DNA of 64,000 nt from Thermotogota bacterium (lineage in GTDB: Bacteria; Thermotogota; Thermotogae; MWEM01): the NCBI GenBank assembly GCA_035391225.1, contig DAOPKN010000001.1, positions 32,808 through 96,807 of the forward strand. The letters run 5' to 3'. Below the pieces are notes generated by a model that had not been told where the DNA came from, ran no database searches, and saw only the letters and a program-made list of their open reading frames with translations. Made by a program: the position numbers and the translations under genes. Positions 20,557 through 60,412 of this stretch are shown here, in pieces. How positions within the stretch are numbered: position 1 is the stretch's first letter; every line of letters begins with the position of its first letter.

Positions 20557-20566
20557 TGGTATAATC
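20557..20566 (+). promoter_or_regulatory. Candidate extended -10 promoter element (TGGTATAAT) for the CARF gene
   Basis: 'aaTGgTATAATc' lies about 35 nt upstream of the TTG start at 20600, giving a perfect TATAAT with a TGn extension. The -35 region is weak ('TTTCCA'). Confidence 0.3.
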
Positions 20567-20599: not shown

Positions 20600-21040
20600 T
20601 TGACGGAACGTCTACTGATTACTCCGCTGGGAACGTCTCCCGGGGTGTTGTATACCCTGGTAAAGGTTTTGCAGCCCGATCGCATCTTCGTGGTTTCTTC
20701 CGCAAAGGCACTGGGGAGTTTGCCCGAAATTGCCCAAAGGTCGGGTTTTGACCTGAAAGGCATCGTTTCTTTTTTCTTCCAAGACCCTTTCAGTGGTTTC
20801 GAGGAAATGCCGGGCTTCTTGGAAGCACTCAAGAAGAACTGGCCCGACGCTGTCATGCCCGAAGTGATCGTGAACCTGGCGGGGGGAACTTCCTTCTTGC
20901 AATACGCGGTGGGAAAGGCTTCGGATTTTTGCGAACAAAAGAAAATCCCGGTGAAAAAGGTGTTTGCCGTTGACCGCCGGGAGTTCTCCCAACAGCGAGA
21001 AGAACCTTACGTTGTGGGAGAAGTGATTCCAGTTCCGTGA
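20600..21040 (+). CDS. Stand-alone CARF-domain protein (Crn1-like candidate ring nuclease or cyclic-oligoadenylate sensor)
   Basis: Start set at TTG 20600 (GGGGAGGGG site 7 nt upstream). The ORF track's 20552 start lies in the promoter region. 'LLITPLGTSPGVLYT' matches the CARF strand-1/Gly-Thr-Ser loop (compare 'LGTSPG' of Crn1). 'VIVNLAGGTSFLQYAVG' matches the second CARF ligand-binding motif (h-h-N/D-h-T/A-GG-T/F-K/S). Confidence 0.55.
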   Translation: MTERLLITPLGTSPGVLYTLVKVLQPDRIFVVSSAKALGSLPEIAQRSGFDLKGIVSFFFQDPFSGFEEMPGFLEALKKNWPDAVMPEVIVNLAGGTSFLQYAVGKASDFCEQKKIPVKKVFAVDRREFSQQREEPYVVGEVIPVP

Positions 21041-21049
21041 GGTGATACA

Positions 21050-22096
21050 ATGGGGAAACGAAAAAGAATTTTCACCAACGTGGGAAACACGTTTTGGAGA
21101 AGCACCTTTGGTGGGGAGGATAGGCAGTTCGATTCTTCCCGGCTGGTGCAAGAAGCAGCGAAAATGACCCTGGAGGACTTGGAATGCAGGTCCCCGGAAG
21201 TGAACAGCCTGAGCCAGTTTGGCTTGGATGGAAGCGAAGAGCTGCTTTTCTTCTGCACCAACACACCGGATTCGCTGGCGTGCGGGGAGGCGTTGGTTTC
21301 CTTGTACCGGCAGGGAGAGTACCAGGTTTCGCTGGAAACCTTGGAACACTTCCACGATTCCGGTTCGTCCGATTCCTTCCGAAAAGGCGTCGCAGAGTAC
21401 GTGAGCAAAATGATTTCGTACCTGGATAAGCCCGATTCCCGGTACGGCTTGGATACCTTCATCAACGTGACATCGGGTTTCCGATCCCTCGTGCCGTATG
21501 CAACCATCCTGGGCACGGTATTTCACGCCAGCGTTTTCTACCTCTACGAACGGCAGTCGAAGGTCCACGTGCTACCGCCGCTGCCCATTTCCTTCGATGA
21601 TGGTGTTTTCCAGCAGAACGACCTGTTTTTCTTCCGGCTTTCCAACGACATGCTTCCGCGGAAAGAAGTGCAGGATGTCATCGGGTACCAAAAAATGATG
21701 GAGATGATGCCCGATTACCTGGTGGAAGAAGATGGGTTGGTGTATTTCTCGGAGTTGGGGCGCATCCTTTGGGGGAAGTTCAACGCCGAGAACCCCGTTC
21801 TGTTCCTTTCCGACGAAGCGAAGAAAAGGCTCAAGAAAACCCCGGAGCTAAAGGAGCTGGTGGTGAAAGCCCTCAAGGGGGAGGGGCAGCCCGAGCATTC
21901 GTTGCACGAGTACAAGGGGAAGCTGCAGTGCTACAAGTTTGACCGGAAGTCCGTCCGGTTTTTCTACGAGACGCGCAACGGCTACCTGTACATCGCGAAG
22001 ATCCTGGACCACGACGAGTACGAGCGTTACATTTCCCAGGCAAAACCCAACGAGGAATTCCGTTGGAACCGCGAACGGATTCCCATGGAAGGGTAA
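21050..22096 (+). CDS. CARF-RelE fusion protein (Cami1-like cyclic-oligoadenylate-activated mRNA interferase candidate)
   Basis: Lies 9 nt after the stand-alone CARF gene, so the two are probably co-transcribed. N-terminal CARF motifs 'RIFTNVGNTFW' and 'FINVTSGFRSLVPYATILG'. C-terminus 'YKGKLQCYKFDRKSVRFFYETRNGYLYIAKILDHDEYERY' fits the RelE/ParE toxin core pattern (G/K...Y..R..Y......h-Y-I-h-.I-h-.H-.-e-Y). Confidence 0.55.
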   Translation: MGKRKRIFTNVGNTFWRSTFGGEDRQFDSSRLVQEAAKMTLEDLECRSPEVNSLSQFGLDGSEELLFFCTNTPDSLACGEALVSLYRQGEYQVSLETLEHFHDSGSSDSFRKGVAEYVSKMISYLDKPDSRYGLDTFINVTSGFRSLVPYATILGTVFHASVFYLYERQSKVHVLPPLPISFDDGVFQQNDLFFFRLSNDMLPRKEVQDVIGYQKMMEMMPDYLVEEDGLVYFSELGRILWGKFNAENPVLFLSDEAKKRLKKTPELKELVVKALKGEGQPEHSLHEYKGKLQCYKFDRKSVRFFYETRNGYLYIAKILDHDEYERYISQAKPNEEFRWNRERIPMEG

Positions 22097-22100
22097 GGCT

Positions 22101-22673
22101 TCATTCCCGGGGATGCTTTTTCAACGAAACGATGAGCATTTGGATCCTTGCAATCCCGTACGCGATAAACGCATCAGCGGCTGCGATGAATCCTACCAGC
22201 AAGAGAAACAGGGTGGAGTGATCCGTCTGTTCGAGGAAAAAAGGGAAAAAAGTAGTTAGCCACAAGAGCGAAGGAAGGATTGCCAACACGAGGGTTCGTC
22301 GCAAGCGGATGAATTTTTCCATCTTTGAGCGGTTGTCCGAGAAGATATCCGGGGTTTGGGAATTGGTTTGTTGCGTGCGGAAGCAGTGCCAGTTGGCGAA
22401 AGAATCGATGTATTCCCATCCCCCATCTGAGAAGAGGGCGGTGTATTCGGGGAAATCCTTCCCTCCCTGTACCCGGTAATCGAAGCAATAGGTGAAGTCT
22501 CCAGGGGTTCCCTTCACGAAACGGTACGTTCCAAACCCGAACTGGCTAAGGTGCCACCCTTCTTTGGACATTTTTTTTAACCATCGGGTTTCCCTTTGCT
22601 CATTCCAAGCGGTGAAAAAGCGGTGCACTGTTTTGCTGCTTTTGGATGTGTTCATGGGCATTTCCCCTTTCAT
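22101..22673 (-). CDS. DUF2812 domain membrane protein (PadR-associated)
   Basis: 'GWHLSQFGFGTYRFVKG' matches the DUF2812 signature, and the C-terminus has two TM helices. The start ATG overlaps the upstream PadR stop in an ATGA overlap, and DUF2812 is a classic PadR-operon partner. Confidence 0.65.
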   Translation of the reverse strand: MKGEMPMNTSKSSKTVHRFFTAWNEQRETRWLKKMSKEGWHLSQFGFGTYRFVKGTPGDFTYCFDYRVQGGKDFPEYTALFSDGGWEYIDSFANWHCFRTQQTNSQTPDIFSDNRSKMEKFIRLRRTLVLAILPSLLWLTTFFPFFLEQTDHSTLFLLLVGFIAAADAFIAYGIARIQMLIVSLKKHPRE

Positions 22674-35584: not shown

Positions 35585-36851
35585 CCACCCAGGACTAAGC
35601 TACCAAGAATTGCCAAATGGGGCCCAGGTGTACTTCCAAAAGATGCCTGGGCTGCGTTCGGTGTGTATCGGGGTTGCGGTTCGTGCGGGTTCCTCGCACG
35701 AACCCGCGGACCTTGGGGGTATCGCGCACTTCACCGAGCACATGGTTTTCAAGGGAACTACCAAGCGGGACGCCTTTTCCTTGAAAGAACCCATCGAGAA
35801 GGTGGGAGGAACGTTGAATGCCTTCACCGGGAAGGAAACCACGGTTTACTTCGCGCGGGTTCCCGATTTCCAGGCAAAGGTGGCGTTGGAAATCTTGCTC
35901 GATATTGGGCAGAACGCCGTTTTTCCCGAAGAGGAGTTTAGCCTGGAAAAAGAAGTGGTGATCGAGGAGATCTGGTCTTCCGAGGATGATCCCGTGGACC
36001 AGGTGTACGAGAACCTTTTCCAGCTGGCCTGGAACGGCGGTGCCTATGGCCGGCCAGTGCTCGGGAATTTCGAAAGCGTTTCCCGCACGGAGCGAAAGGA
36101 CCTGGTGGATTTCTACCGCTCCCAGTACCACTCCAAGAACCTCATCGTTTCCGTGGCTGGTGACGTTGCCCAGGATTTCTTCAACCCCTTGGAGGCGTTT
36201 CCGACCGGTAACGCGGACCTCTCTCCCGCGGTTTTGGAGTATGCGCCGAAGGAACAGGTGGTTTTCGAGGAGAAGGAAGATTTGCAGCAAGTGCACCTTT
36301 TGCTGGGTCTCCGCGCTCCGGGCCGTAAAGACCCCCATTTCGATGCCTTCCAGGTGTTGAACGTCATCTTGAGCGGAGGCATGAGTTCCCGGCTGTTTCA
36401 CCGTGTGCGGGAGAAACTGGGTCTGGTGTACGCCATCGACTCTGGGTTGATTTCCTACCCCTCCAACGGGATTTTTTACATTTACGCCGCCACTTCGGCA
36501 GAGAAAGTGGGGCGCTTGGTGGAAGAGTTGCGCGGACAGGTTTCCGACCTTTTGCAGCACGGTGTGCGCGAGGAGGAGCTGGAGTATGGAAAGGCAAGGT
36601 TCCGGGGGAAATTGCTCCTTTCCACGGAAAGCACCTACTCTTCGATGATGCGGAACCTGGATAGCGGGCTGTCCTTGGGGCGTCCAGAGACCGTGGAAAA
36701 GATGGTGGAGCGAATTTTGCACATCGATTCTGAAAAACTCCAAGAGGTAATCCGGGAGTACCTGTCGCACCCCTGGCTCATGAGCACGGTTGTCCCCACG
36801 CGTTCCGTGGACCTTCTGAAAGCGAGTAAAATCCTTGAAAAGGGGTTTTGA
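35571..36851 (+). CDS. M16-family zinc peptidase (insulinase/pitrilysin-like, possibly an inactive partner)
   Basis: 'GIAHFTEHMVFKGT' HxxEH inverted zinc motif. The start may be ATG 35571 or GTG 35556, both overlapping the pnp 3' end. Confidence 0.75.
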   Translation: MKTIDHPGLSYQELPNGAQVYFQKMPGLRSVCIGVAVRAGSSHEPADLGGIAHFTEHMVFKGTTKRDAFSLKEPIEKVGGTLNAFTGKETTVYFARVPDFQAKVALEILLDIGQNAVFPEEEFSLEKEVVIEEIWSSEDDPVDQVYENLFQLAWNGGAYGRPVLGNFESVSRTERKDLVDFYRSQYHSKNLIVSVAGDVAQDFFNPLEAFPTGNADLSPAVLEYAPKEQVVFEEKEDLQQVHLLLGLRAPGRKDPHFDAFQVLNVILSGGMSSRLFHRVREKLGLVYAIDSGLISYPSNGIFYIYAATSAEKVGRLVEELRGQVSDLLQHGVREEELEYGKARFRGKLLLSTESTYSSMMRNLDSGLSLGRPETVEKMVERILHIDSEKLQEVIREYLSHPWLMSTVVPTRSVDLLKASKILEKGF

Positions 36852-36853
36852 TC

Positions 36854-37990
36854 ATGAAAATTTCCTGGCAACCCATCGACGAAATCAAAACCGGATCGGT
36901 TTGTGGGGACGATATTTTTGATCCCAATAGCTTCGTGCTGTTGACCCATCGCGGGAATGTCTTGAATTCCCAAACGCTGGCTTTCCTGAAAAGGCACAAC
37001 GTGACCTGGATCCCCGTGGGGGTGGAGGAAGCCAATGCCCCTCGCCCCGATGACACGCTCCCCCTTTCGTTGGAAAAGGAAACGATGGCCCAGGCGGAAA
37101 AAGCCCTTGCCCCTGATCTTCCCTTAGCGCTTTCCGACGAGAAGTACCATTCGGCACTGAATCGCTTCCAGAATTTTGCCCAGGTTTTGTTGGAGAAGGG
37201 GACGGTGAATCCTGCCGAGATCACCAACCTGTCCAACGACATCGTGAGCGAGGTGATCAAGACGGAGCCGGGGGTTTTGAACTTCCTCACGGAGATCAGC
37301 GGGGGCTTCATCGTGAAGCACGGTATCAACGTTGCGATCCTTGCGGCATCCTTGGCGCACCATCTCAAGCAACCCTGGCATTACCTCGTGCAATTGGTGA
37401 AGGTGGCACTGCTGCATGATGTGGGGTTGATATGGGTTTCCCCCAAGCGGTCGCTGCAATTCGTGGAAGATATCCAGAAGGAGTTCGAGTACGGGCCGAT
37501 GGACCGCATCAAGATGCACCCCATTTTGGCGGTGAAGATAATCCAGAAGGTCGATCCTGGTTTCTTGGAAAAGGACGTGGAAACGGGAATCCTCGAGCAC
37601 CACGAACGCTTCGATGGCAGGGGTTTCCCCTTCCACCGGGTGGGGAAGGGCATCCATTTTTTTGCCCGGGTTCTTGCTGTTGCCGATACGTACGATACCT
37701 TGATTACTTCCATCGGCGGAAAGGCCCGGATGGATCCCCATGCGGCTTTACGCTGGATCATTTCCAAGGTGGATTCCGTTTTCGACCCGGACATGGTGCG
37801 GGCATTCATTCAGATTGCCGGCATTTATCCCACCGGTACGCTGGTGAAGCTGAACGATGGGAGCATGGGAAAGGTGATTTCCCGGGGAGAAAGGGCTTTG
37901 GGGCGTCCCATATTGCTTTCCGAAGGTCGTGAAATCGAGTTGGAAAAGAACCCGGATCTGTTTATCCTTGAGGTGAAGGGAATTGGTTAA
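36854..37990 (+). CDS. HD-GYP domain protein (c-di-GMP phosphodiesterase family) with an N-terminal sensor region
   Basis: 'LLHDVGLIWV' HD motif and 'HHERFDGRGFPF' GYP-region motif. Confidence 0.8.
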   Translation: MKISWQPIDEIKTGSVCGDDIFDPNSFVLLTHRGNVLNSQTLAFLKRHNVTWIPVGVEEANAPRPDDTLPLSLEKETMAQAEKALAPDLPLALSDEKYHSALNRFQNFAQVLLEKGTVNPAEITNLSNDIVSEVIKTEPGVLNFLTEISGGFIVKHGINVAILAASLAHHLKQPWHYLVQLVKVALLHDVGLIWVSPKRSLQFVEDIQKEFEYGPMDRIKMHPILAVKIIQKVDPGFLEKDVETGILEHHERFDGRGFPFHRVGKGIHFFARVLAVADTYDTLITSIGGKARMDPHAALRWIISKVDSVFDPDMVRAFIQIAGIYPTGTLVKLNDGSMGKVISRGERALGRPILLSEGREIELEKNPDLFILEVKGIG

Positions 37991-39062
37991 ATGGAAACCA
38001 CTCGAACAACTCCAGGAAGGCGATGTGATCGCGGAGAACATCCTTGGGAGTAATTCCCAAGATCTGATCGTCCACACGGGGCAACTGGTTTCCAAAGCCT
38101 TGATCCAAAAGTTGCATAGCCGAGGGATTTCGTGGATCTCGGTTTTCGAGGATGTTCGTAAGGCAGTGCAGATCCACTCCGCCCCGTTTTCCCAGGAAAA
38201 GCTCGATGAAATGGAAGAGGAGATCTCCCAGGTCTTCGAAAAGATCCTCAAAGAGGAGCGGGTGGAAGTCGCACGGGTGGAGACGCTGGGAAGGGAAATT
38301 TCCCATGCCATCATTTCCACCTACGGGGAGTACCTGGTTCCCTCGCTTTCCAAGTTGCGCGAACTGGATGACTACACCTTCAACCACCAGGTGAACGTTT
38401 CGATCATTGCCACTTCCATTGCGGCCGAGATGTTTCCCCACGACATTGGCATGGTGGAACGGATTGCAACGGGGGGGCTTTTGCACGACATGGGGAAGTT
38501 GTGGATCCCCTTGGAGATCTTGAACAGCAAGAAGCGCCTTGCGGACATGGAATTTGATATCATCAAGAAACACCCCAAGTATGGCCACGGGATTGCCCTT
38601 ATGTCTGGGATCGAAGACCAGGTAGTTTTGGACTGTATTCTTTTTCACCACGAACGCGTGGATGGCACGGGGTATTGCACGGGTTTGAAGGGCGAAGAGA
38701 TTCCCTTCGCTGGCCGGTTGATGATGGTCGCGGATGTGTTTGATGCCCTGACATCGGTGCGCCCCTACAAGAAAGGCTGGTCTCCGTACGATGCCGTGAG
38801 TTTCATCATCAAGGAAACCGGCAAAATGTTCGACCAGAAGATCGTGAATCCTTTTATCAAGGCTTTTGGCATTTACCCCGTGGGCACGGAGGTGCTTCTC
38901 TCCGATGGCTTGAAGGGGACGGTGGTGGGGAATCGGAAGGGGACCATTTCCCGACCGCTGATCAGCTTTGAGAGAAATGGTGAGTCGAAGTTGGTCGACT
39001 TGTTCGAGAGAAAAGACTTGCGCGTGGTGGAGGTACTGCGGGGTGCCCTGGCAACCGGGTGA
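37983..39062 (+). CDS. HD-GYP domain protein (tandem paralogue)
   Basis: 'LLHDMGKLWIP' and 'HHERVDGTGY'. Overlaps the upstream paralogue by 8 nt. Confidence 0.8.
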   Translation: MVKWKPLEQLQEGDVIAENILGSNSQDLIVHTGQLVSKALIQKLHSRGISWISVFEDVRKAVQIHSAPFSQEKLDEMEEEISQVFEKILKEERVEVARVETLGREISHAIISTYGEYLVPSLSKLRELDDYTFNHQVNVSIIATSIAAEMFPHDIGMVERIATGGLLHDMGKLWIPLEILNSKKRLADMEFDIIKKHPKYGHGIALMSGIEDQVVLDCILFHHERVDGTGYCTGLKGEEIPFAGRLMMVADVFDALTSVRPYKKGWSPYDAVSFIIKETGKMFDQKIVNPFIKAFGIYPVGTEVLLSDGLKGTVVGNRKGTISRPLISFERNGESKLVDLFERKDLRVVEVLRGALATG

Positions 39063-40287
39063 GCCCGCGCTTCGCGCGCTGGGTGATGGCTTGTTTTTGC
39101 CCGATTACGGCAACCGCTCGCTGGTGGGTTTTTCCAACTTCCTGTTGCAGCATTTTGGAGAGACACCGTTGCACGAGCCTTTTCACGTAGGTGATTCCTT
39201 CGCTTGGGTGGGAAAACGCAAAAAAGTGGTGGTTTTCCTGTTGGACTCCCTGGGTTTCTCCAATCTTCAACGAATCTGTGCGTGCTCTCCCTATGCTGCG
39301 CAGCTTGTGGAAAAAGCGGTGTGCTGGAAGCTCTCCACGGTGTTTCCCTCCACGACAACCGCCGCACTAACCAGCTTTTTCACCGGGCGCTATCCTTGTG
39401 AGCACGGCATGTTGGGGTACATACTGTTCCTCAAGAAATTCTCCTCCTACGTGAACATGATCGATTTCTCTCCACCCGGATTGCCGCGTGACATTCTTTT
39501 GGGAACGGGATTGAATCCCACGCGTTTCTTGCCGGTTCCCACGCTTTTCGAGATACTGGGGAAAAAGGGGGTCAAGTGCTGGTCGGTGACCTCGAACCTT
39601 TTCAAGCAATCCGGGTTGAGCTTGATGCATCACAAGGGTTCGGCCATTCGTGGCTACTCGGACATGACGGAAATGGCTTTTTGCGTGCAACGACTTTTGC
39701 AAAGGGAGAAAGGACCCCTTTTCGTCACCGTGTACTGGGGGCTTCTCGATTCGCTTGCGCACCATTATGGCCCCGATTCCGAAGAGTTTGCCAAGGAAGG
39801 CGAGCTGCTTTTTCGTCTTTTCCACGAGGTGTTGTTTTCCAACAAGGAGATTCCCCAACCTGAAGATACGTTGTTTTTCATCACCGCGGACCATGGACAG
39901 ATTGCCACGAGCTGGAAGGACGAAAGTTGGTTCGTGTACCAGGATCCACTCATTTCGGAGCACCTGGAGGGACTTCCTTCCGGTGAGCCCCGTGCGGTAT
40001 ACCTTTCTCCCCGGGATGCAGAGGCTTTCCAAAGGGATTTTTCCGCACAGGTTGGCAACCGGTTTCGTTGGCTTTCCCGCACGCAAGCCCTGCAGCATGG
40101 TTTGTTCGGGGCTGCAGAAAGCGCGAGCCCTCTTTTTTTCGAACGGGTTCCCCCGCTCGTGGGACTGGCAAAGGGAAACTACTCGTTTAACTTTAAGTAC
40201 TCGGGCAACGAGCGATCTCTCAAAGGGAAACACGGAAGCGTAACCACGGGGGAGTTGGAAATCCCATTGTTGATGATTGCTCCTTGA
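39043..40287 (+). CDS. Alkaline-phosphatase-superfamily phosphodiesterase / nucleotide pyrophosphatase-like enzyme
   Basis: 'VVVFLLDSLGF' (metal-binding Asp-Ser/Gly) and 'FITADHGQ' (DHG motif) as in type I phosphodiesterases. Start uncertain: GTG 39043 (GGAGGT 7 nt upstream) is preferred over ATG 38968, which would overlap the upstream gene by 95 nt. Confidence 0.55.
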   Translation: MPWQPGEPALRALGDGLFLPDYGNRSLVGFSNFLLQHFGETPLHEPFHVGDSFAWVGKRKKVVVFLLDSLGFSNLQRICACSPYAAQLVEKAVCWKLSTVFPSTTTAALTSFFTGRYPCEHGMLGYILFLKKFSSYVNMIDFSPPGLPRDILLGTGLNPTRFLPVPTLFEILGKKGVKCWSVTSNLFKQSGLSLMHHKGSAIRGYSDMTEMAFCVQRLLQREKGPLFVTVYWGLLDSLAHHYGPDSEEFAKEGELLFRLFHEVLFSNKEIPQPEDTLFFITADHGQIATSWKDESWFVYQDPLISEHLEGLPSGEPRAVYLSPRDAEAFQRDFSAQVGNRFRWLSRTQALQHGLFGAAESASPLFFERVPPLVGLAKGNYSFNFKYSGNERSLKGKHGSVTTGELEIPLLMIAP

Positions 40288-42769: not shown

Positions 42770-43482
42770 CCGGTTTCCCGGACTTGTTCGTGCAATCTCT
42801 ACCCCTGCTGTTTGACCACGAATGGGAAAGGTTTCTTCGACTGGTGCTGGTGCGCACCCCTTCGGTGATATTCGCACTGGCGTTCCACGAATGGGCACAT
42901 GCCTGGGTGGCTTGCAGGGTGGGCGATCCCAGCCCACGCCTCTTGGGGCGGAAAACGCTCAACCCCTTGCGGCACATTGATCCTGTGGGGCTGGGGGTCT
43001 TTTTGGTGTTCGGGTACGGGTGGTCCAGACCCATTCCCATCAACCCGTTGAAATTGAAGAGGAAGACGCGCGACATCTTCCTGATCACGATTTCTGGTCC
43101 CGTTTTCAACCTTGGCCTCGCCTTTTTCGCGGGTTTCTTGTTTTACGGGTTGGGGTTGCACAAGTTCAGCTTTTTTTTCAATCCGGGTGCGGTGGATGCC
43201 CATTTCCTCGTGATGTACCTTGCGGACTTGTTGGGATATTTCGTGGTTGCCAATTTCGTGTTGTTCGTGTTCAACGTTCTTCCGGTCATGCCGTTGGATG
43301 GTTCTCGGTTCCTGCTGATTTTTTCCACCTCTCGCTACATGAAGGTAGTGTTGAAGTACCAGGTGTACGGCATCATCGTGTTGCTTTTCTTGATTATCAC
43401 TGGGATTGCCAACTGGTTCATGGCGCCCATCGTGGAATTGTTCCAGGGTATGATCATTCGCCTGTCCCAGTATTTTGGATGA
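42766..43482 (+). CDS. M50-family membrane zinc metalloprotease (SpoIVFB/site-2 protease-like)
   Basis: 'HEWAHAWVA' HExxH within a TM helix, a later 'NLLPVMPLDGSRFL' LDG motif, and multiple TM segments. Its ATG overlaps the upstream stop in an ATGA overlap. Confidence 0.75.
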   Translation: MTGFPDLFVQSLPLLFDHEWERFLRLVLVRTPSVIFALAFHEWAHAWVACRVGDPSPRLLGRKTLNPLRHIDPVGLGVFLVFGYGWSRPIPINPLKLKRKTRDIFLITISGPVFNLGLAFFAGFLFYGLGLHKFSFFFNPGAVDAHFLVMYLADLLGYFVVANFVLFVFNVLPVMPLDGSRFLLIFSTSRYMKVVLKYQVYGIIVLLFLIITGIANWFMAPIVELFQGMIIRLSQYFG

Positions 43483-43502
43483 GGTGGCAAAAGGGGGTAT
43501 TT

Positions 43503-44402
43503 ATGAACCACAACAGGGAGTTTCCATTTATCCAGGTGAAAGATACCGAGCTGAAGGAAAGGATCGTGGGCTTCGTGAAGGAGTACCTGGAATTCATGAC
43601 GTTGCCGCCTCAGGTTTTCGTGTACGACCAGGAATCCGTTCTTCCGTCGGACGTGGAAGGATCCGTGTTGTATTTCTTGGGCTCCCGGGTGGAAGGGTAC
43701 TGCGCGGGGGAAAAAGTGTTCGCCTTCGAGGACTCCCGTAATCCGCGTTTTTTTTCCATGGCGTTGACCTGGCTCTTGGAAAGCAACACGGGCAAACCGG
43801 AACACCTTTGTTCGGCCCAATCCGTTCGCAAGCGGTTGATTTCGGTTCTCGAACCCTTCATCGTGCTGATGGAGGTGGAAGACGAGCGGGGGTACAGCCA
43901 TTCGCAGCGCGTGTCGAATCTTTTCGTGCAGTTTTCCCGCTACCTGGGTCTTCCCAAGGAAGATGAGAAGATGTTTCTCCACTATTCCATGTTGCACGAT
44001 GTGGGAAGGATCGGGTTGGAGCAGTTGATGTTGTATTCTCCCACGCGACTGCGCAACTTCGAGGAAACCGGGCAGGACCACACGATTACCGGGTCGATTT
44101 ACCTTTCTACCCTGGAAGTGCTGGACGATTTCATTCCTTTCGTGCGCAGTCACCATGAGCGGTTCGATGGAAGGGGTTTCCCGGACCGCTTGAAAGCGAA
44201 AGAGATCCCCTACTGGGTGCGGGTGTTTTCCATCGTGAACTGGTACGATAATGCCTTGAATACCGTGGATTCGGAGTTTTCCACGGGGGTCATGAGTTCC
44301 ACCCAAGCCCTTTCGATTATCCGGGAAGATGGCGGCAAGATGTTTGATCCGCACCTCGCATCCGAGTTCGTGCATTTCATGTTGCTCGAGCGAGACGCAT
44401 GA
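43503..44402 (+). CDS. HD-GYP domain protein (third copy in the window)
   Basis: 'MLHDVGRIG' and 'HHERFDGRGFP'. Start set at ATG 43503 (AAAGGGGG site upstream). The ORF-track start 43020 lies inside the M50 gene. Confidence 0.75.
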   Translation: MNHNREFPFIQVKDTELKERIVGFVKEYLEFMTLPPQVFVYDQESVLPSDVEGSVLYFLGSRVEGYCAGEKVFAFEDSRNPRFFSMALTWLLESNTGKPEHLCSAQSVRKRLISVLEPFIVLMEVEDERGYSHSQRVSNLFVQFSRYLGLPKEDEKMFLHYSMLHDVGRIGLEQLMLYSPTRLRNFEETGQDHTITGSIYLSTLEVLDDFIPFVRSHHERFDGRGFPDRLKAKEIPYWVRVFSIVNWYDNALNTVDSEFSTGVMSSTQALSIIREDGGKMFDPHLASEFVHFMLLERDA

Positions 44403-58675: not shown

Positions 58676-60412
58676 TCAAAACAGGGTGAATTCCCCACCC
58701 TCGGATCCAACGTCCTCAATTTCCATGTGTTTTTGGGCAACGATGCGCTCGCGGTACGTTGTCATTCGTTCCACGAGGTTTTTCATGGCGGGATCCGTTC
58801 GGAAATCGAAATCGCTCTCGGGAATTGTTTTTTGCATGCGAAGCAAGAATTGTCCGGTTGCTTCTTCCAGGGATTCCAAGCTTCGGATTTGAACCACGAA
58901 CTTGCTTTCCAACAATTGCACCTTATCGGTCCGCTCGTCTACCACGTCCAGCAGAGCTCCATACTCGAGTTGCATGGTTTTCACCAATTTTTGCAACGCG
59001 TCGAACACTTGCTTGAGCTCCTCCTTGGAAATCACCCTTTCGGAGAGTTCCTCGTACCGATCAAAATCGTCTTGGTTCCTCGTGTACAATTCTCCCAGGG
59101 AATGCACCACCGAATGTAGGTTCTTGGTTTTTTCTTGCACGTGGGAAAGAATGGCCTCGAATTGCTCCTGGTTGTCACTGGCCTTTTTCCCCAGAAGGTG
59201 TGTCAAGCGAGACAGTTCGGCTTTGAGCAGTATTTTCATCGTCTGGAAACGCTTGATAACCCCTTTGGAATTCTGCACGTGCTCCTCCAGTAGTTGGATC
59301 TTCTGCTCGAAATTGGAAAGAAAGTTCTTGAGATTGGCAAGGTTTTCCATCACGTCTTGCATGAAAATGGTGTTTTGCACGGTGATGATCATGATTTCAT
59401 GCACCACGCGGTCCAGGGATTCCACGTTTTCCGGATCGAAAAATTGCCCGAACGTAGCGAGCTGTTCTTGCATTTGCCCGGTGCAATTTTGGGTGAGTTC
59501 TTTCATCTGCTGTTGCACGCCTTGGAAGGATTCCATGAACTGCTGCGCACCGTTGTCAAAGATTTCCCGCGAAATCTGGATCACGAAGTGCAGGAAACCT
59601 TGGTCTTCGAGATTCTTGCTCTCCCGCAACCGGGTAGTGGCTTCGTCGAGGAATTCGATGATGTGCTCCAATTCTTGGCGGAAAATATCTTGGTCTACCA
59701 GGTGCGCCAACAATTCTGGCACTTTTTGGCCACTTTCTTGCACAGAAGCCTGAAGCTGCTGTTGGAACCCGAAAAACCCCTGCTCCATGGCTTTGAACTG
59801 CTCCATAAGTTGGGAAAAGGAGGCTTGGAGCTTTTCCAGCTGCTTGAAACGTGTGATGTGTTCCCGGAGGGTATCCAGCGCGGGGAAATTTTGCTCGATG
59901 ATGGTATGAATCTGGGAAAAATGCTGGCTCAACCGGGAAGATTCCCTTTGGATTTCGCGGGAAAGAATGGAAAAAGCTCCCCCTGCCTCACCCAGTTGGG
60001 AGGCGGTGATCGAGGAATTCGTGGCTGCCATGGAAAGCTCTTCCAGGATAAGGTCGATTTCCTTCGTTGCGTGAATGATCTGGGCAATCACGGAGTTGCC
60101 CCGACTGCTCCCGAAAATTTCCCGGAAAATGGTTTCGGAAAGTTGCACCACTTGGAGCAGGGCATTCAGGGAATTTTCGATGGTCATCCGGATTTCCGAT
60201 AGTCTCTCCACGAAGCCGCTCCCATCACGGCTGTCGGAGAAAAACATGGACAAAAAGGACTGGATCTCTCCCAGCAAAAACGACAAATCCCCCTCGAACG
60301 AAGAGAGGATGTTATACACCTCAAGGCCCAGCTGTTCAGAGGAACCCATGGATTGGGTCACATACTTGCGAATGCGCTCAAGCTCGTCGGAAAAATCGAT
60401 GATTAGGGGCAA
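58676..60412 (-). CDS. Large all-alpha coiled-coil protein of unknown function at the head of the che operon region
   Basis: 578-aa ORF with strong coding periodicity. Its composition is heptad-rich and Glu/Leu/Gln-rich, and no catalytic motif is recognisable. Confidence 0.45.
   Translation of the reverse strand: MPLIIDFSDELERIRKYVTQSMGSSEQLGLEVYNILSSFEGDLSFLLGEIQSFLSMFFSDSRDGSGFVERLSEIRMTIENSLNALLQVVQLSETIFREIFGSSRGNSVIAQIIHATKEIDLILEELSMAATNSSITASQLGEAGGAFSILSREIQRESSRLSQHFSQIHTIIEQNFPALDTLREHITRFKQLEKLQASFSQLMEQFKAMEQGFFGFQQQLQASVQESGQKVPELLAHLVDQDIFRQELEHIIEFLDEATTRLRESKNLEDQGFLHFVIQISREIFDNGAQQFMESFQGVQQQMKELTQNCTGQMQEQLATFGQFFDPENVESLDRVVHEIMIITVQNTIFMQDVMENLANLKNFLSNFEQKIQLLEEHVQNSKGVIKRFQTMKILLKAELSRLTHLLGKKASDNQEQFEAILSHVQEKTKNLHSVVHSLGELYTRNQDDFDRYEELSERVISKEELKQVFDALQKLVKTMQLEYGALLDVVDERTDKVQLLESKFVVQIRSLESLEEATGQFLLRMQKTIPESDFDFRTDPAMKNLVERMTTYRERIVAQKHMEIEDVGSEGGEFTLF

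What the first reader, a model, noticed from the sequence alone, without database searches (positions are those of the whole stretch)
21050..22096. Orphan CARF-RelE (Cami1-like) fusion effector with no CRISPR-Cas locus in 64 kb
The 348-aa protein has two CARF-type ligand-binding motifs in its N-terminal half ('RIFTNVGNTFW' and 'FINVTSGFRSLVPY'). Its C-terminal 40 residues ('YKGKLQCYKFDRKSVRFFYETRNGYLYIAKILDHDEYERY') follow the RelE/ParE mRNA-interferase core pattern. CARF-RelE fusions (Cami1) are described as cA4-activated, ribosome-dependent mRNases that act as ancillary effectors of type III CRISPR-Cas. Here there is no cas10/csm/cmr gene, no CRISPR array and no recognisable nucleotide cyclase (CD-NTase, mCpol, GGDEF) anywhere in the window. 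The neighbours are histidine kinases and a PadR/DUF2812 module. This could be a cyclic-oligonucleotide-gated toxin repurposed outside CRISPR immunity, or one wired to a distant signal generator.
Basis: partly seen in the sequence, partly recalled or inferred. Interest (0 to 1): 0.85.

Follow-up and report, generated by a model that had tools for sequence, protein, structure and literature searches.

The report
Detached Cami1-type toxin with small CARF partner

Summary

It encodes a 146-aa stand-alone CARF2-like protein and is translationally coupled to the toxin gene.

All 18 metagenome orthologues (40-45% identity) with upstream sequence, plus L007 and L013, have this same pair. There it is the tail of a block: helicase, CYTH-CARF7-HD, small CARF, CARF-RelE. 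That block is flanked by cmr/csm genes, cas6 or a CRISPR array.

In this Thermotogota genome only the last two genes remain, between a histidine kinase and a DUF2812/PadR operon. About 78 kb around them holds no cas gene, array or cyclase.

The pair is compositionally native, intact in the 5-6 other assemblies, and its SNPs suggest purifying selection (6 synonymous, 2 conservative).

Most likely it is a cA4-gated translation toxin with a cA4-binding off-switch, fed in trans by a type III system elsewhere in the genome. I could not check that.

This subfamily replaces both ring-nuclease motif residues (Ser to Thr, Lys to Arg). Moderately interesting.

The parts
20557..20565 (+). Candidate extended -10 promoter element (TGgTATAAT) for the two-gene operon, in the 125-nt divergent intergenic region shared with the histidine kinase gene
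   Evidence: Read directly from the sequence. The consensus scan did not flag it because there is no good -35 hexamer. This is an inference, not a demonstration.
20600..21040 (+). Small stand-alone CARF protein (146 aa, CARF2-like) with a TTG start preceded by the Shine-Dalgarno sequence GGGGAGGGG. Candidate cA4-binding regulator (ring nuclease or sponge).
   Evidence: PADLOC CARF2--CARF_HEPN_CARF E 7.4e-37, matching the C-terminal CARF domain of the model, positions 374-517 of 518. No Pfam or NCBIfam hit. The identical protein P0153 is annotated in NCBI MAG GCA_035447145.1. AF2 pLDDT 90.9. Foldseek matches the CARF domains of Can2 and T. thermophilus Csm6 at E 2e-7. The family alignment has invariant TPLGTSPGVLYTL, NLxGGTSFLQY and DRR motifs.
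21038..21049 (+). Translational coupling junction: small-CARF stop codon TGA, a Shine-Dalgarno sequence (GAGGTGA) overlapping it, and a 9-nt gap before the ATG at 21050
   Evidence: Read from the sequence. The same tight adjacency of the two genes is seen in all orthologous loci.
21050..22096 (+). CARF7-wHTH-RelE protein (348 aa), a member of the Cami1 family
21050..21610 (+). CARF7 domain (residues about 1-187), with motif I G12-N13-T14 and motif II T141-S142-G143-F144-R145
   Evidence: Alignments to Cami1 and Sis0811. In the 56-sequence family alignment the motif I position is Ser in 52 and the motif II position is Lys in 53. Thr and Arg occur only in this subfamily.
21833..22096 (+). RelE-like C-terminal domain (residues about 262-348), with K296, R303, H321, Y324 and Y327
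   Evidence: R303, H321 and Y324 are conserved in at least 90% of family members. H321 aligns with the His that is replaced by Ala in the ribosome-bound Cami1 structure 8PHJ. The hhalign register against E. coli RelE is weak: K296 to K52, R303 to R61, H321 to R81.

Best explanation
The locus is a two-gene operon, small CARF followed by CARF-RelE. It is a detached piece of a type III CRISPR accessory block, retained in the chromosome of a Thermotogota bacterium.

Proposed mechanism:
1. The 348-aa protein dimerises through its CARF7 domains and binds cyclic tetra-adenylate (cA4).
2. Binding activates its RelE-like domain, which cleaves mRNA in the ribosomal A site and stops translation. This is what has been shown for Cami1.
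3. The co-translated 146-aa CARF protein binds the same messenger and either degrades or sequesters it. That sets an activation threshold and acts as an off-switch.
4. An extrinsic off-switch would matter more here because this Cami1 subfamily has replaced both residues used for intrinsic ring-nuclease activity (Ser to Thr, Lys to Arg).
5. The cA4 most probably comes in trans from a Cas10 complex encoded elsewhere in the genome.

Shown here: family membership, fold, conservation of the key residues, operon structure, CRISPR embedding of the orthologues, and absence of cas genes within about 78 kb.

Inferred: the identity of the ligand, toxin activity, the role of the small CARF, and the existence of a distant type III locus.
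For: Family and fold:
- PADLOC CARF_RelE models match at E 2.5e-38 and 7.6e-38 across nearly the whole protein.
- The 56-sequence family profile matches Cami1 8PHB at E 7.5e-87 over positions 1-348.

Functional residues:
- E50 and G143 are invariant. R303, H321 and Y324 are each conserved in more than 90% of members and are all present here.
- 8PHJ differs from 8PHB only by S to A in the GTS motif and H to A in DHDEY. I infer that these mark the ring-nuclease and RNase sites.

Literature:
- Cami1 is a dimeric, cA4-activated effector that cleaves A-site mRNA (PMC11229360).
- Cami1 has intrinsic ring-nuclease activity (PMC12830947, PMC12409355).
- The Ser and Lys are key for CARF7 ring nucleases (PMC9638899).

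Partner gene:
- A CARF fold, with closest structures the CARF domains of Can2 and of TtCsm6 bound to cA4 or A2>p.
- The small CARF lies directly upstream of CARF-RelE in 18 of 18 metagenome orthologue loci with upstream sequence, and also in L007 and L013.
- In some contigs it is fused to a CARF7-HD effector. This parallels the known Csx1-Crn2 fusion of an effector with a ring nuclease (PMC7293037).

CRISPR link:
- Orthologous blocks are flanked by Cas10 plus cmr3-6 (L020) or Csm3-type genes (L031), and by cas6 (L007, L013, L032).
- Arrays with one shared repeat family occur in 12 of the 21 metagenome loci, and in L012, which carries a different CARF7 fusion.

Maintained and native:
- The gene is intact in the five assemblies that cover it fully and cut by the contig end in a sixth; all six are 99.7-99.98% identical to the window.
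- Population SNPs are 6 synonymous sites against 2 conservative nonsynonymous sites in CARF-RelE, and none in the small CARF.
- GC, GC3 and codon usage lie within the spread of neighbouring genes.
Against: - No type III locus, Cas10 or other cyclase lies within about 78 kb. The trans source is therefore assumed, not seen.
- The small CARF lacks the motif II lysine (it has Ser at the TtCsm6 K137 position) and the Tyr161 equivalent (it has Ala). In TtCsm6 these are needed for cA4 binding and cleavage respectively (PMC10897365). Its ligand and activity are therefore uncertain.
- In L012 the small CARF sits next to a canonical Ser/Lys CARF7 protein (CARF_DUF2103 type), and it can be fused to the HD effector. 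Its primary partner may therefore be the HD protein rather than RelE. This weakens the idea that it compensates for lost intrinsic ring-nuclease activity.
- Thr and Arg are conservative replacements and might retain catalysis.
- The SNP sample is tiny (8 sites).
- The RelE fold of the C-terminal domain was not shown independently of Cami1.
Confidence: 0.62

Rival explanations
1. A stranded remnant. The pair was cut loose from a type III locus that the lineage has since lost. With no cA4 source it is silent baggage, like V. cholerae VC1899, and has simply not yet decayed.
For: No cas gene, array or cyclase lies within about 78 kb. The helicase and CYTH-CARF7-HD genes that accompany the pair in 16 orthologue loci (16 of the 18 with upstream sequence) are missing here. 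There are precedents for orphan CARF proteins: VC1899, described as 'cast adrift' (PMC7969007), and about 25% of csx15 genes (PMC13148439).
Against: Both ORFs are intact. All conserved ligand-site and RNase-site residues are retained. SNPs are biased toward synonymous changes, 6 to 2, with none in the small CARF. The composition is fully host-like, which implies long residence without decay. The operon signals are intact. VC1899, by contrast, has a degenerate binding site.
Confidence: 0.18
2. A self-contained, CRISPR-independent abortive-infection or stress module. The toxin responds to a cyclic oligonucleotide made by a non-Cas10 source, such as another defence system, a phage, or a host enzyme. 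The small CARF acts as an antitoxin-like buffer, as the upstream antitoxin does in RelBE operons.
For: The gene order (small binder first, toxin second, translationally coupled) resembles type II toxin-antitoxin operons. The motif I and II residues are altered in both proteins, which could mean a changed ligand or changed kinetics. The detached, chromosomally native context is unique among about 25 loci examined. Orphan PfCsx15 works as a cA4 sponge (PMC13148439).
Against: The same residue changes occur in every CRISPR-embedded orthologue, so they are not an adaptation to life outside CRISPR. No alternative cyclase was found in the window by Pfam or PADLOC. No member of the family was found on viral contigs. 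No CARF7-RelE protein is known to respond to anything other than cA4.
Confidence: 0.12
3. Mainly a regulator rather than a toxin. The pair works as a cA4 sink, combining a ring nuclease with a sponge, to damp signalling from a type III system. The RelE domain would be inactive or secondary, as was first seen for Synechocystis SyCsm6 in vitro.
For: SyCsm6 (CARF7-RelE) showed ring-nuclease activity but no RNase activity in vitro (PMC9676260). There are two CARF proteins in one operon.
Against: RelE-type toxins need ribosomes, so the in vitro negative result is uninformative; that paper says so itself, and Cami1 was later shown to be ribosome-dependent (PMC11229360). The RNase-site residues R303, H321 and Y324 are conserved. 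The ring-nuclease residues, not the RNase residues, are the ones substituted in this subfamily.
Confidence: 0.08

Closest known systems
Cami1 (CARF-RelE; PDB 8PHB and 8PHJ; Mogila et al., Science 2023)
   Different: Only about 22% identical to the solved protein. Motif I Ser is replaced by Thr and motif II Lys by Arg; these are the positions tied to ring-nuclease activity. Always paired with a small CARF gene. Here it is not in a type III locus.
Crn1-type CARF7 ring nucleases (Sso2081, SSO1393, Sis0811)
   Different: Those proteins have no RelE domain and keep the catalytic Ser and Lys. The window protein has Thr and Arg (PMC9638899).
T. thermophilus Csm6 CARF domain and PADLOC 'CARF2 CARF_HEPN_CARF' proteins (closest to the small CARF)
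   Same: Same CARF fold (Foldseek E 2e-7, TM-score about 0.70 on the query). Conserved motif I G-T-S. PADLOC E 7.4e-37 to the C-terminal CARF of CARF_HEPN_CARF.
   Different: Stand-alone at 146 aa, with no HEPN or other effector domain. Ser replaces the motif II Lys (K137), Ala replaces Y161, and an invariant DRR motif sits where TtCsm6 has D163-N164-E165 (PMC10897365). It matches no named stand-alone ring-nuclease profile in Pfam or NCBIfam.
Orphan CARF proteins: V. cholerae VC1899 and P. fluorescens Csx15
   Same: CARF-family genes located away from any type III locus (PMC7969007, PMC13148439).
   Different: VC1899 has a degenerate ligand site, whereas this protein keeps the family's conserved residues. 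PfCsx15 is a lone sponge, whereas this locus is a toxin plus a candidate sponge or ring nuclease.
Csx1-Crn2 'fuse to defuse' effector and ring-nuclease fusion
   Same: An effector physically or genetically coupled to a dedicated cA4 off-switch. The small CARF occurs both free and fused to a CARF7-HD effector (PMC7293037).
   Different: Crn2 (DUF1874) is unrelated to CARF, and the activity of the small CARF is untested.

Membership tests
Cami1 / CARF-RelE (CARF7 clade) | N-terminal CARF7 (Cas_APE2256) domain with motif I (G-T-S) and motif II (T-G-G-F-K) | tested here: met
   Pfam PF09651 E 1.7e-18, above the gathering cut-off. Aligned with Cami1 and Sis0811. The motifs are present but with Thr for Ser and Arg for Lys.
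Cami1 / CARF-RelE (CARF7 clade) | Full-length homology and the same domain order as the solved Cami1 structure | tested here: met
Cami1 / CARF-RelE (CARF7 clade) | C-terminal RelE-fold RNase domain with conserved catalytic residues | tested here: inconclusive
   R303, H321 and Y324 are conserved, and H321 aligns with the His mutated in 8PHJ. The isolated domain, however, gave no RelE or ParE hit by HMMER against PDB, only 1 of 25 members matched Pfam ParE_toxin at E 0.055, and hhalign against RelE gave 13.6% probability. The fold is supported only through Cami1.
Cami1 / CARF-RelE (CARF7 clade) | cA4 binding that activates ribosome-dependent mRNA cleavage | not testable with these tools
   Requires biochemistry. 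Inferred from family membership (PMC11229360).
Cami1 / CARF-RelE (CARF7 clade) | [quoted passage not shown] | tested here: not met
   No cas gene, array or cyclase within about 78 kb. Orthologues do meet this feature. This is a matter of context, not of protein family membership.
Cami1 / CARF-RelE (CARF7 clade) | Intrinsic ring-nuclease activity of the CARF domain (Ser and Lys dependent in CARF7 enzymes) | tested here: inconclusive
   Both positions are substituted, to T14 and R145. This is unique to the subfamily among 56 family members and is present in all 17 orthologues. The consequence for activity is unknown.
Stand-alone CARF ring nucleases (Crn1, Csx15, Csx16, Csx20), considered for the small CARF | Match to the family profiles | tested here: not met
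   No Pfam or NCBIfam family at E up to 1. In PADLOC only CARF2 CARF_HEPN_CARF models match strongly; CARF1 and Csx1 models match weakly. Structurally nearest are the Can2 and TtCsm6 CARF domains, not Crn1.
Stand-alone CARF ring nucleases (Crn1, Csx15, Csx16, Csx20), considered for the small CARF | Small CARF-only protein encoded beside cA4-dependent effectors in type III loci | tested here: met
   144-154 aa with a CARF fold at pLDDT 90.9. It lies between a CARF7-HD effector and CARF-RelE in about 20 type III-linked loci.
Stand-alone CARF ring nucleases (Crn1, Csx15, Csx16, Csx20), considered for the small CARF | Catalytic and binding residues: motif I Thr/Ser and motif II Lys | tested here: inconclusive
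   Motif I G-T-S is invariant. The motif II Lys is replaced by an invariant Ser, and there is an invariant DRR motif nearby (PMC10897365).
Type II RelBE toxin-antitoxin system | Small RelB-type antitoxin that binds and neutralises a free-standing RelE of about 90 aa | tested here: not met
   The upstream gene has a CARF fold, not a RelB, Phd or ribbon-helix-helix fold. The RelE-like domain is fused to CARF-wHTH.

The most novel reading that the evidence does not exclude
The pair is an autonomous cyclic-oligoadenylate-sensing abortive-infection module that works in a genome without any type III CRISPR system. It would be triggered by cOA from a non-Cas10 source, such as another defence system or an invading element. 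The small CARF would represent a new family of threshold-setting sponge or ring-nuclease 'antitoxin', using an arginine-based (DRR) ligand site instead of the canonical lysine.
Probability: 0.12. Interest if true: 0.75.

Novelty: new variant of a known kind. Interest (0 to 1): 0.42.

Why it matters
If the mechanism holds, three points follow.

1. A conserved small-CARF plus Cami1 cassette adds a candidate new family of stand-alone cA4 regulators. Its binding-site chemistry differs from Crn1 and TtCsm6: there is no motif II lysine, and there is an invariant DRR motif.

2. A Cami1 subfamily has swapped both ring-nuclease residues and is always accompanied by that small protein. This gives a natural test of how intrinsic and extrinsic off-switches trade off.

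3. A native locus that appears to be under purifying selection, far from any cas gene, is a concrete case for asking whether type III effectors are commonly wired in trans or can be reused outside CRISPR.

None of this overturns current models. Orphan CARF genes and trans-acting accessory genes have already been described.

Tried and rejected
- An exact-sequence lookup of the window protein failed. The window differs by one or two residues from the deposited alleles.
- A genome-contig scan with the CARF-RelE protein found nothing. A scan with the small-CARF alignment found only Kosmotogaceae UBA1373. The source species is therefore not in that collection.
- To test for a type III system elsewhere in the genome, I concatenated Cas10, Cmr2-6 and Cas6 baits into one query for the last word-indexed protein search. 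The candidate list saturated and only the bait's own Cas10 came back. The question stays open.
- Viral contigs hold no relative of either protein.
- Rejected: that the small CARF is a truncated remnant of a CARF-HEPN-CARF gene. It is a conserved 144-154-aa ORF in about 20 loci.
- Rejected: recent horizontal acquisition. The composition is host-like.
- Rejected: a classical RelBE module. The upstream gene has a CARF fold.
- Rejected: that the Cas_APE2256 proteins in L012 and L009 are CARF-RelE. They lack the HDEY motif and match CARF_DUF2103 models.
Full report
**1. Observation**

- Pfam places residues 50-178 in Cas_APE2256 (the CARF7 clade) at E 1.7e-18, above the gathering threshold.
- PADLOC's CARF7--CARF_RelE and CARF_RelE models match nearly the whole protein at E 2.5e-38 and 7.6e-38.
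- An exhaustive HMMER search of 1.84 billion representatives finds 940 relatives. Most are 340-400 aa and aligned end to end, but only three or four are closer than 33% identity.

**2. Identity of the protein**

- The best solved relative is 8PHB/8PHJ, by phmmer at E 3.6e-16 over query residues 47-333.
- A profile of 56 family members matches 8PHB at E 7.5e-87 over its full length.
- An AlphaFold2 model built from that alignment is confident (pLDDT 94.1, pTM 0.90).
- Foldseek ranks 'apo Cami1' and 'cA4-bound Cami1 in complex with 70S ribosome' first, followed by the Crn1-type ring nucleases SSO1393 and Sis0811.

[quoted passage not shown] It also has intrinsic ring-nuclease activity (PMC12830947, PMC12409355).

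The ribosome-bound entry 8PHJ differs from 8PHB at two places only: Ser to Ala in the G-T-S motif, and His to Ala in D-H-D-E-Y. I take these, by inference, to mark the ring-nuclease and RNase sites. The window protein keeps the His (H321) and the near-invariant R303 and Y324.

On its own, the C-terminal domain could not be tied to RelE or ParE by sequence:
- no PDB hit with the domain profile;
- one marginal ParE_toxin hit among 25 members;
- 13.6% hhalign probability against E. coli RelE, although in the expected register.

The RelE label therefore rests on Cami1.

**3.

Nine nucleotides upstream ends another + strand ORF. NCBI's annotation of a near-identical MAG calls it from TTG 20600 (146 aa, P0153, 'Thermotogota bacterium').
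- The start is preceded by GGGGAGGGG and by an extended -10 element, TGgTATAAT (20557-20565).
- Its stop codon overlaps the Shine-Dalgarno sequence of the CARF-RelE gene.
- It has no Pfam or NCBIfam match, but it matches the C-terminal CARF of PADLOC 'CARF2--CARF_HEPN_CARF' models at E 7.4e-37.
- It folds as a plain CARF domain (pLDDT 90.9). The nearest structures are the CARF domains of Can2 and of T. thermophilus Csm6, the latter solved with cA4 and with A2>p.
- The family is small: 13 clusters in 5.8 billion proteins. It is very conserved, with invariant TPLGTSPGVLYTL, NLxGGTSFLQY and DRR motifs.
- Compared with TtCsm6 it keeps motif I (G-T-S). It has Ser where K137 sits and Ala where Y161 sits. 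Those residues are needed for cA4 binding and cleavage in TtCsm6 (PMC10897365). Its chemistry must therefore differ.

**4. Context in this genome**

The window is ordinary chromosome: PAS histidine kinases, M29 peptidase, PadR/DUF2812, PfkB, amylase, SerRS, RseP, PNPase, HD-GYP proteins, L9, DnaB, Lgt, RlmN, a che operon and tRNAs.
- There is no CRISPR-like repeat.
- There is no cas gene or cyclase by Pfam, and no PADLOC hit in the ORFs that lack a Pfam hit.
- tblastn with Cas10, Cmr3-6, Cas6, helicase and HD baits gives nothing better than E 0.03.

The window is 99.7-99.98% identical to six other assemblies, including a 218-kb contig of GCA_035447145.1. Looking up proteins near the window ends extended the view by about 7 kb each way. 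Upstream there are more kinases; downstream there are M19 peptidase, GcvP, SIR2 and hydrolases. So about 78 kb is free of cas genes.

**5. Context in relatives**

Contexts of small-CARF relatives, one GTDB genome (Kosmotogaceae UBA1373) and 21 metagenome loci with CARF-RelE orthologues at 40-45% identity were screened locally.
- In 18 of 18 metagenome loci with upstream sequence, and in L007 and L013, the small CARF gene lies directly upstream of CARF-RelE.
- In 16 of them (16 of the 18 with upstream sequence) the small CARF is preceded by a protein of about 930 aa that PADLOC calls CARF7--CARF_CYTH_HD (E 5e-152).
- In 12 of them that protein is preceded by a helicase that PADLOC calls 'C3a193, possible alternative Cas3' (E 1e-204).
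- L020 has the Cas10 C-terminus and cmr3-6 immediately upstream. L031 has Csm3-type genes. L007, L013 and L032 have cas6 downstream.
- A CRISPR array with the repeat GTTGCGT[GA]AGAACCATAGTGGTATGGAAAC starts 0.4-1.1 kb downstream in 12 metagenome loci. The related locus L012 also has an array.
- That repeat is absent from the window even with three mismatches.

The window is thus the only one of about 25 loci in which the pair stands without the helicase, the HD effector and CRISPR-Cas elements.

**6. Is it alive?**

- The cassette's GC (0.52-0.54), GC3 (0.60-0.74) and codon usage (cosine 0.89-0.92) lie within the spread of 30 neighbouring genes. The relatives have 43-50% GC. It is therefore not a recent import.
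- Across the population, the CARF-RelE gene has variants at six synonymous and two conservative nonsynonymous sites (H102Q, D228E). The small CARF has none.
- This is a small sample, but it is the pattern expected for purifying selection rather than decay.

**7. A subfamily peculiarity**

- In the 56-member family alignment the motif I position is Ser in 52 sequences and the motif II position is Lys in 53.
- The exceptions are the window protein and its three closest relatives: Thr in the window, P0004 and P0005, and Arg in the window, P0003 and P0004. All 17 orthologues from the fetched loci carry G-x-T and T-S-G-Y-R.
- These are the residues shown to matter for cA4 cleavage in CARF7 ring nucleases (PMC9638899).
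- One reading is that this subfamily has weakened its own off-switch and relies on the co-encoded small CARF.
- Against that reading: the small CARF is also found next to a canonical Ser/Lys CARF7 protein of the DUF2103 type in L012. It is also fused in frame to the C-terminus of the CYTH-CARF7-HD protein in P0158, P0159 and P0164. It may therefore serve the whole accessory block.

**8. Mechanism and rivals**

The best-supported account is a cA4-gated ribosome-dependent RNase with a cA4-binding ring nuclease or sponge as threshold and off-switch, supplied in trans by a type III system elsewhere in the genome. Confidence is about 0.6.

I could not verify the trans source. The MAG is not in the searchable genome collection, and a concatenated Cas bait search failed.

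Rivals:
- A stranded remnant, as proposed for V. cholerae VC1899 (PMC7969007).
- An autonomous CRISPR-independent module with the small CARF as an antitoxin-like buffer; compare orphan PfCsx15, which acts as a cA4 sponge (PMC13148439).
- A pure cA4 sink.

**9. Verdict**

- The effector call is right, and the 'orphan within the window' call is right.
- The gene is half of a conserved CARF pair whose relatives, wherever enough flanking sequence is available (L023 and L035 excepted), lie beside type III CRISPR-Cas genes or arrays.
- It is a new variant within a known kind: a Cami1 subfamily with altered ring-nuclease residues, an uncharacterised small CARF partner, and a detached chromosomal location.
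- Orphan CARF genes and trans-acting accessory genes are already documented, so the surprise is moderate.

Noticed in passing
L008:8638-12621 (-), L009:5939-9934 (-), L013:6103-9993 (-), L032:14393-18283 (-): A 1296-1331-aa single polypeptide carries Pfam RNA_pol_Rpb2_6, Rpb1_2 and Rpb1_5 domains, so it looks like a fused beta/beta'-like two-barrel RNA polymerase homologue. It is preceded by a 300-aa protein with no hits and by a sigma54-type AAA+ activator (PADLOC RtcR_PspF2 CARF_AAA_HTH, AAA part only). This group sits between the accessory block or cas6 and Cas10 in Kosmotogaceae-type loci.
   Followed up: partly
P0158, P0159, P0164 (alignment A2): In some contigs the small CARF is fused in frame to the C-terminus of the CYTH-CARF7-HD effector. 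This is a Rosetta-stone link suggesting that it serves that HD effector at least as much as it serves CARF-RelE.
   Followed up: partly
L012:6828-7937, L009:12048-13142: The Cas_APE2256 proteins of 364-369 aa next to the small CARF (L012) or next to Cas10 (L009) are not CARF-RelE. They lack the H-D-E-Y motif and match PADLOC CARF7--CARF_DUF2103 at E 1e-68, with canonical Ser and Lys motifs.
   Followed up: yes
L013:2983-3760 (-) compared with L007:1752-2531 (-): The cas6 gene of the UBA1373 MAG is split across two frames, which is either a frameshift or an assembly error. L007 carries an identical CARF pair and an intact cas6, but different genes beyond it (esterase, acetyltransferases). This points to strain-level rearrangement next to the cassette.
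   Followed up: no
L039:1024-4330: The CRISPR array is broken into several mini-arrays. Each ends in a degenerate repeat (...GGTATGAATTGCT), and they are separated by stretches of about 190-570 nt (start-to-start spacings of 188 to 573 nt).
   Followed up: no
window 36848-39062, 43020-44402, 38968-40287: There are three HD-GYP-type (Pfam HD_5) paralogues and a type I phosphodiesterase/nucleotide pyrophosphatase within 8 kb. None matches a PADLOC model.
   Followed up: partly
window 54-20474, continuing about 7 kb upstream (L014): An unusually dense run of large PAS, HisKA and receiver hybrid histidine kinases: at least eight, up to 1505 aa. It ends at the kinase that is divergently transcribed from the CARF operon.
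   Followed up: no
window 22046-22067 (-) and 22096-22101: A terminator-like hairpin for the convergent DUF2812/PadR operon lies inside the 3' end of the CARF-RelE ORF. The stop codons of the two convergent genes are only 4 nt apart, so there is no room for a separate terminator for the CARF operon.
   Followed up: no
window 58676-60412 (-): A 578-aa protein with no Pfam or PADLOC match is embedded in the chemotaxis operon, between a CheY-like receiver and STAS, CheY and CheA genes. It is conserved in all related contigs.
   Followed up: no
L023:820-3285, L035:5522-6682: In two loci without an adjacent array, the accessory block is flanked by candidate defence genes instead: PADLOC PDC-S27 at E 6e-51 and a Cas4-like nuclease (Aga_Cas4-like_Nuc) at E 2e-17.
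   Followed up: no
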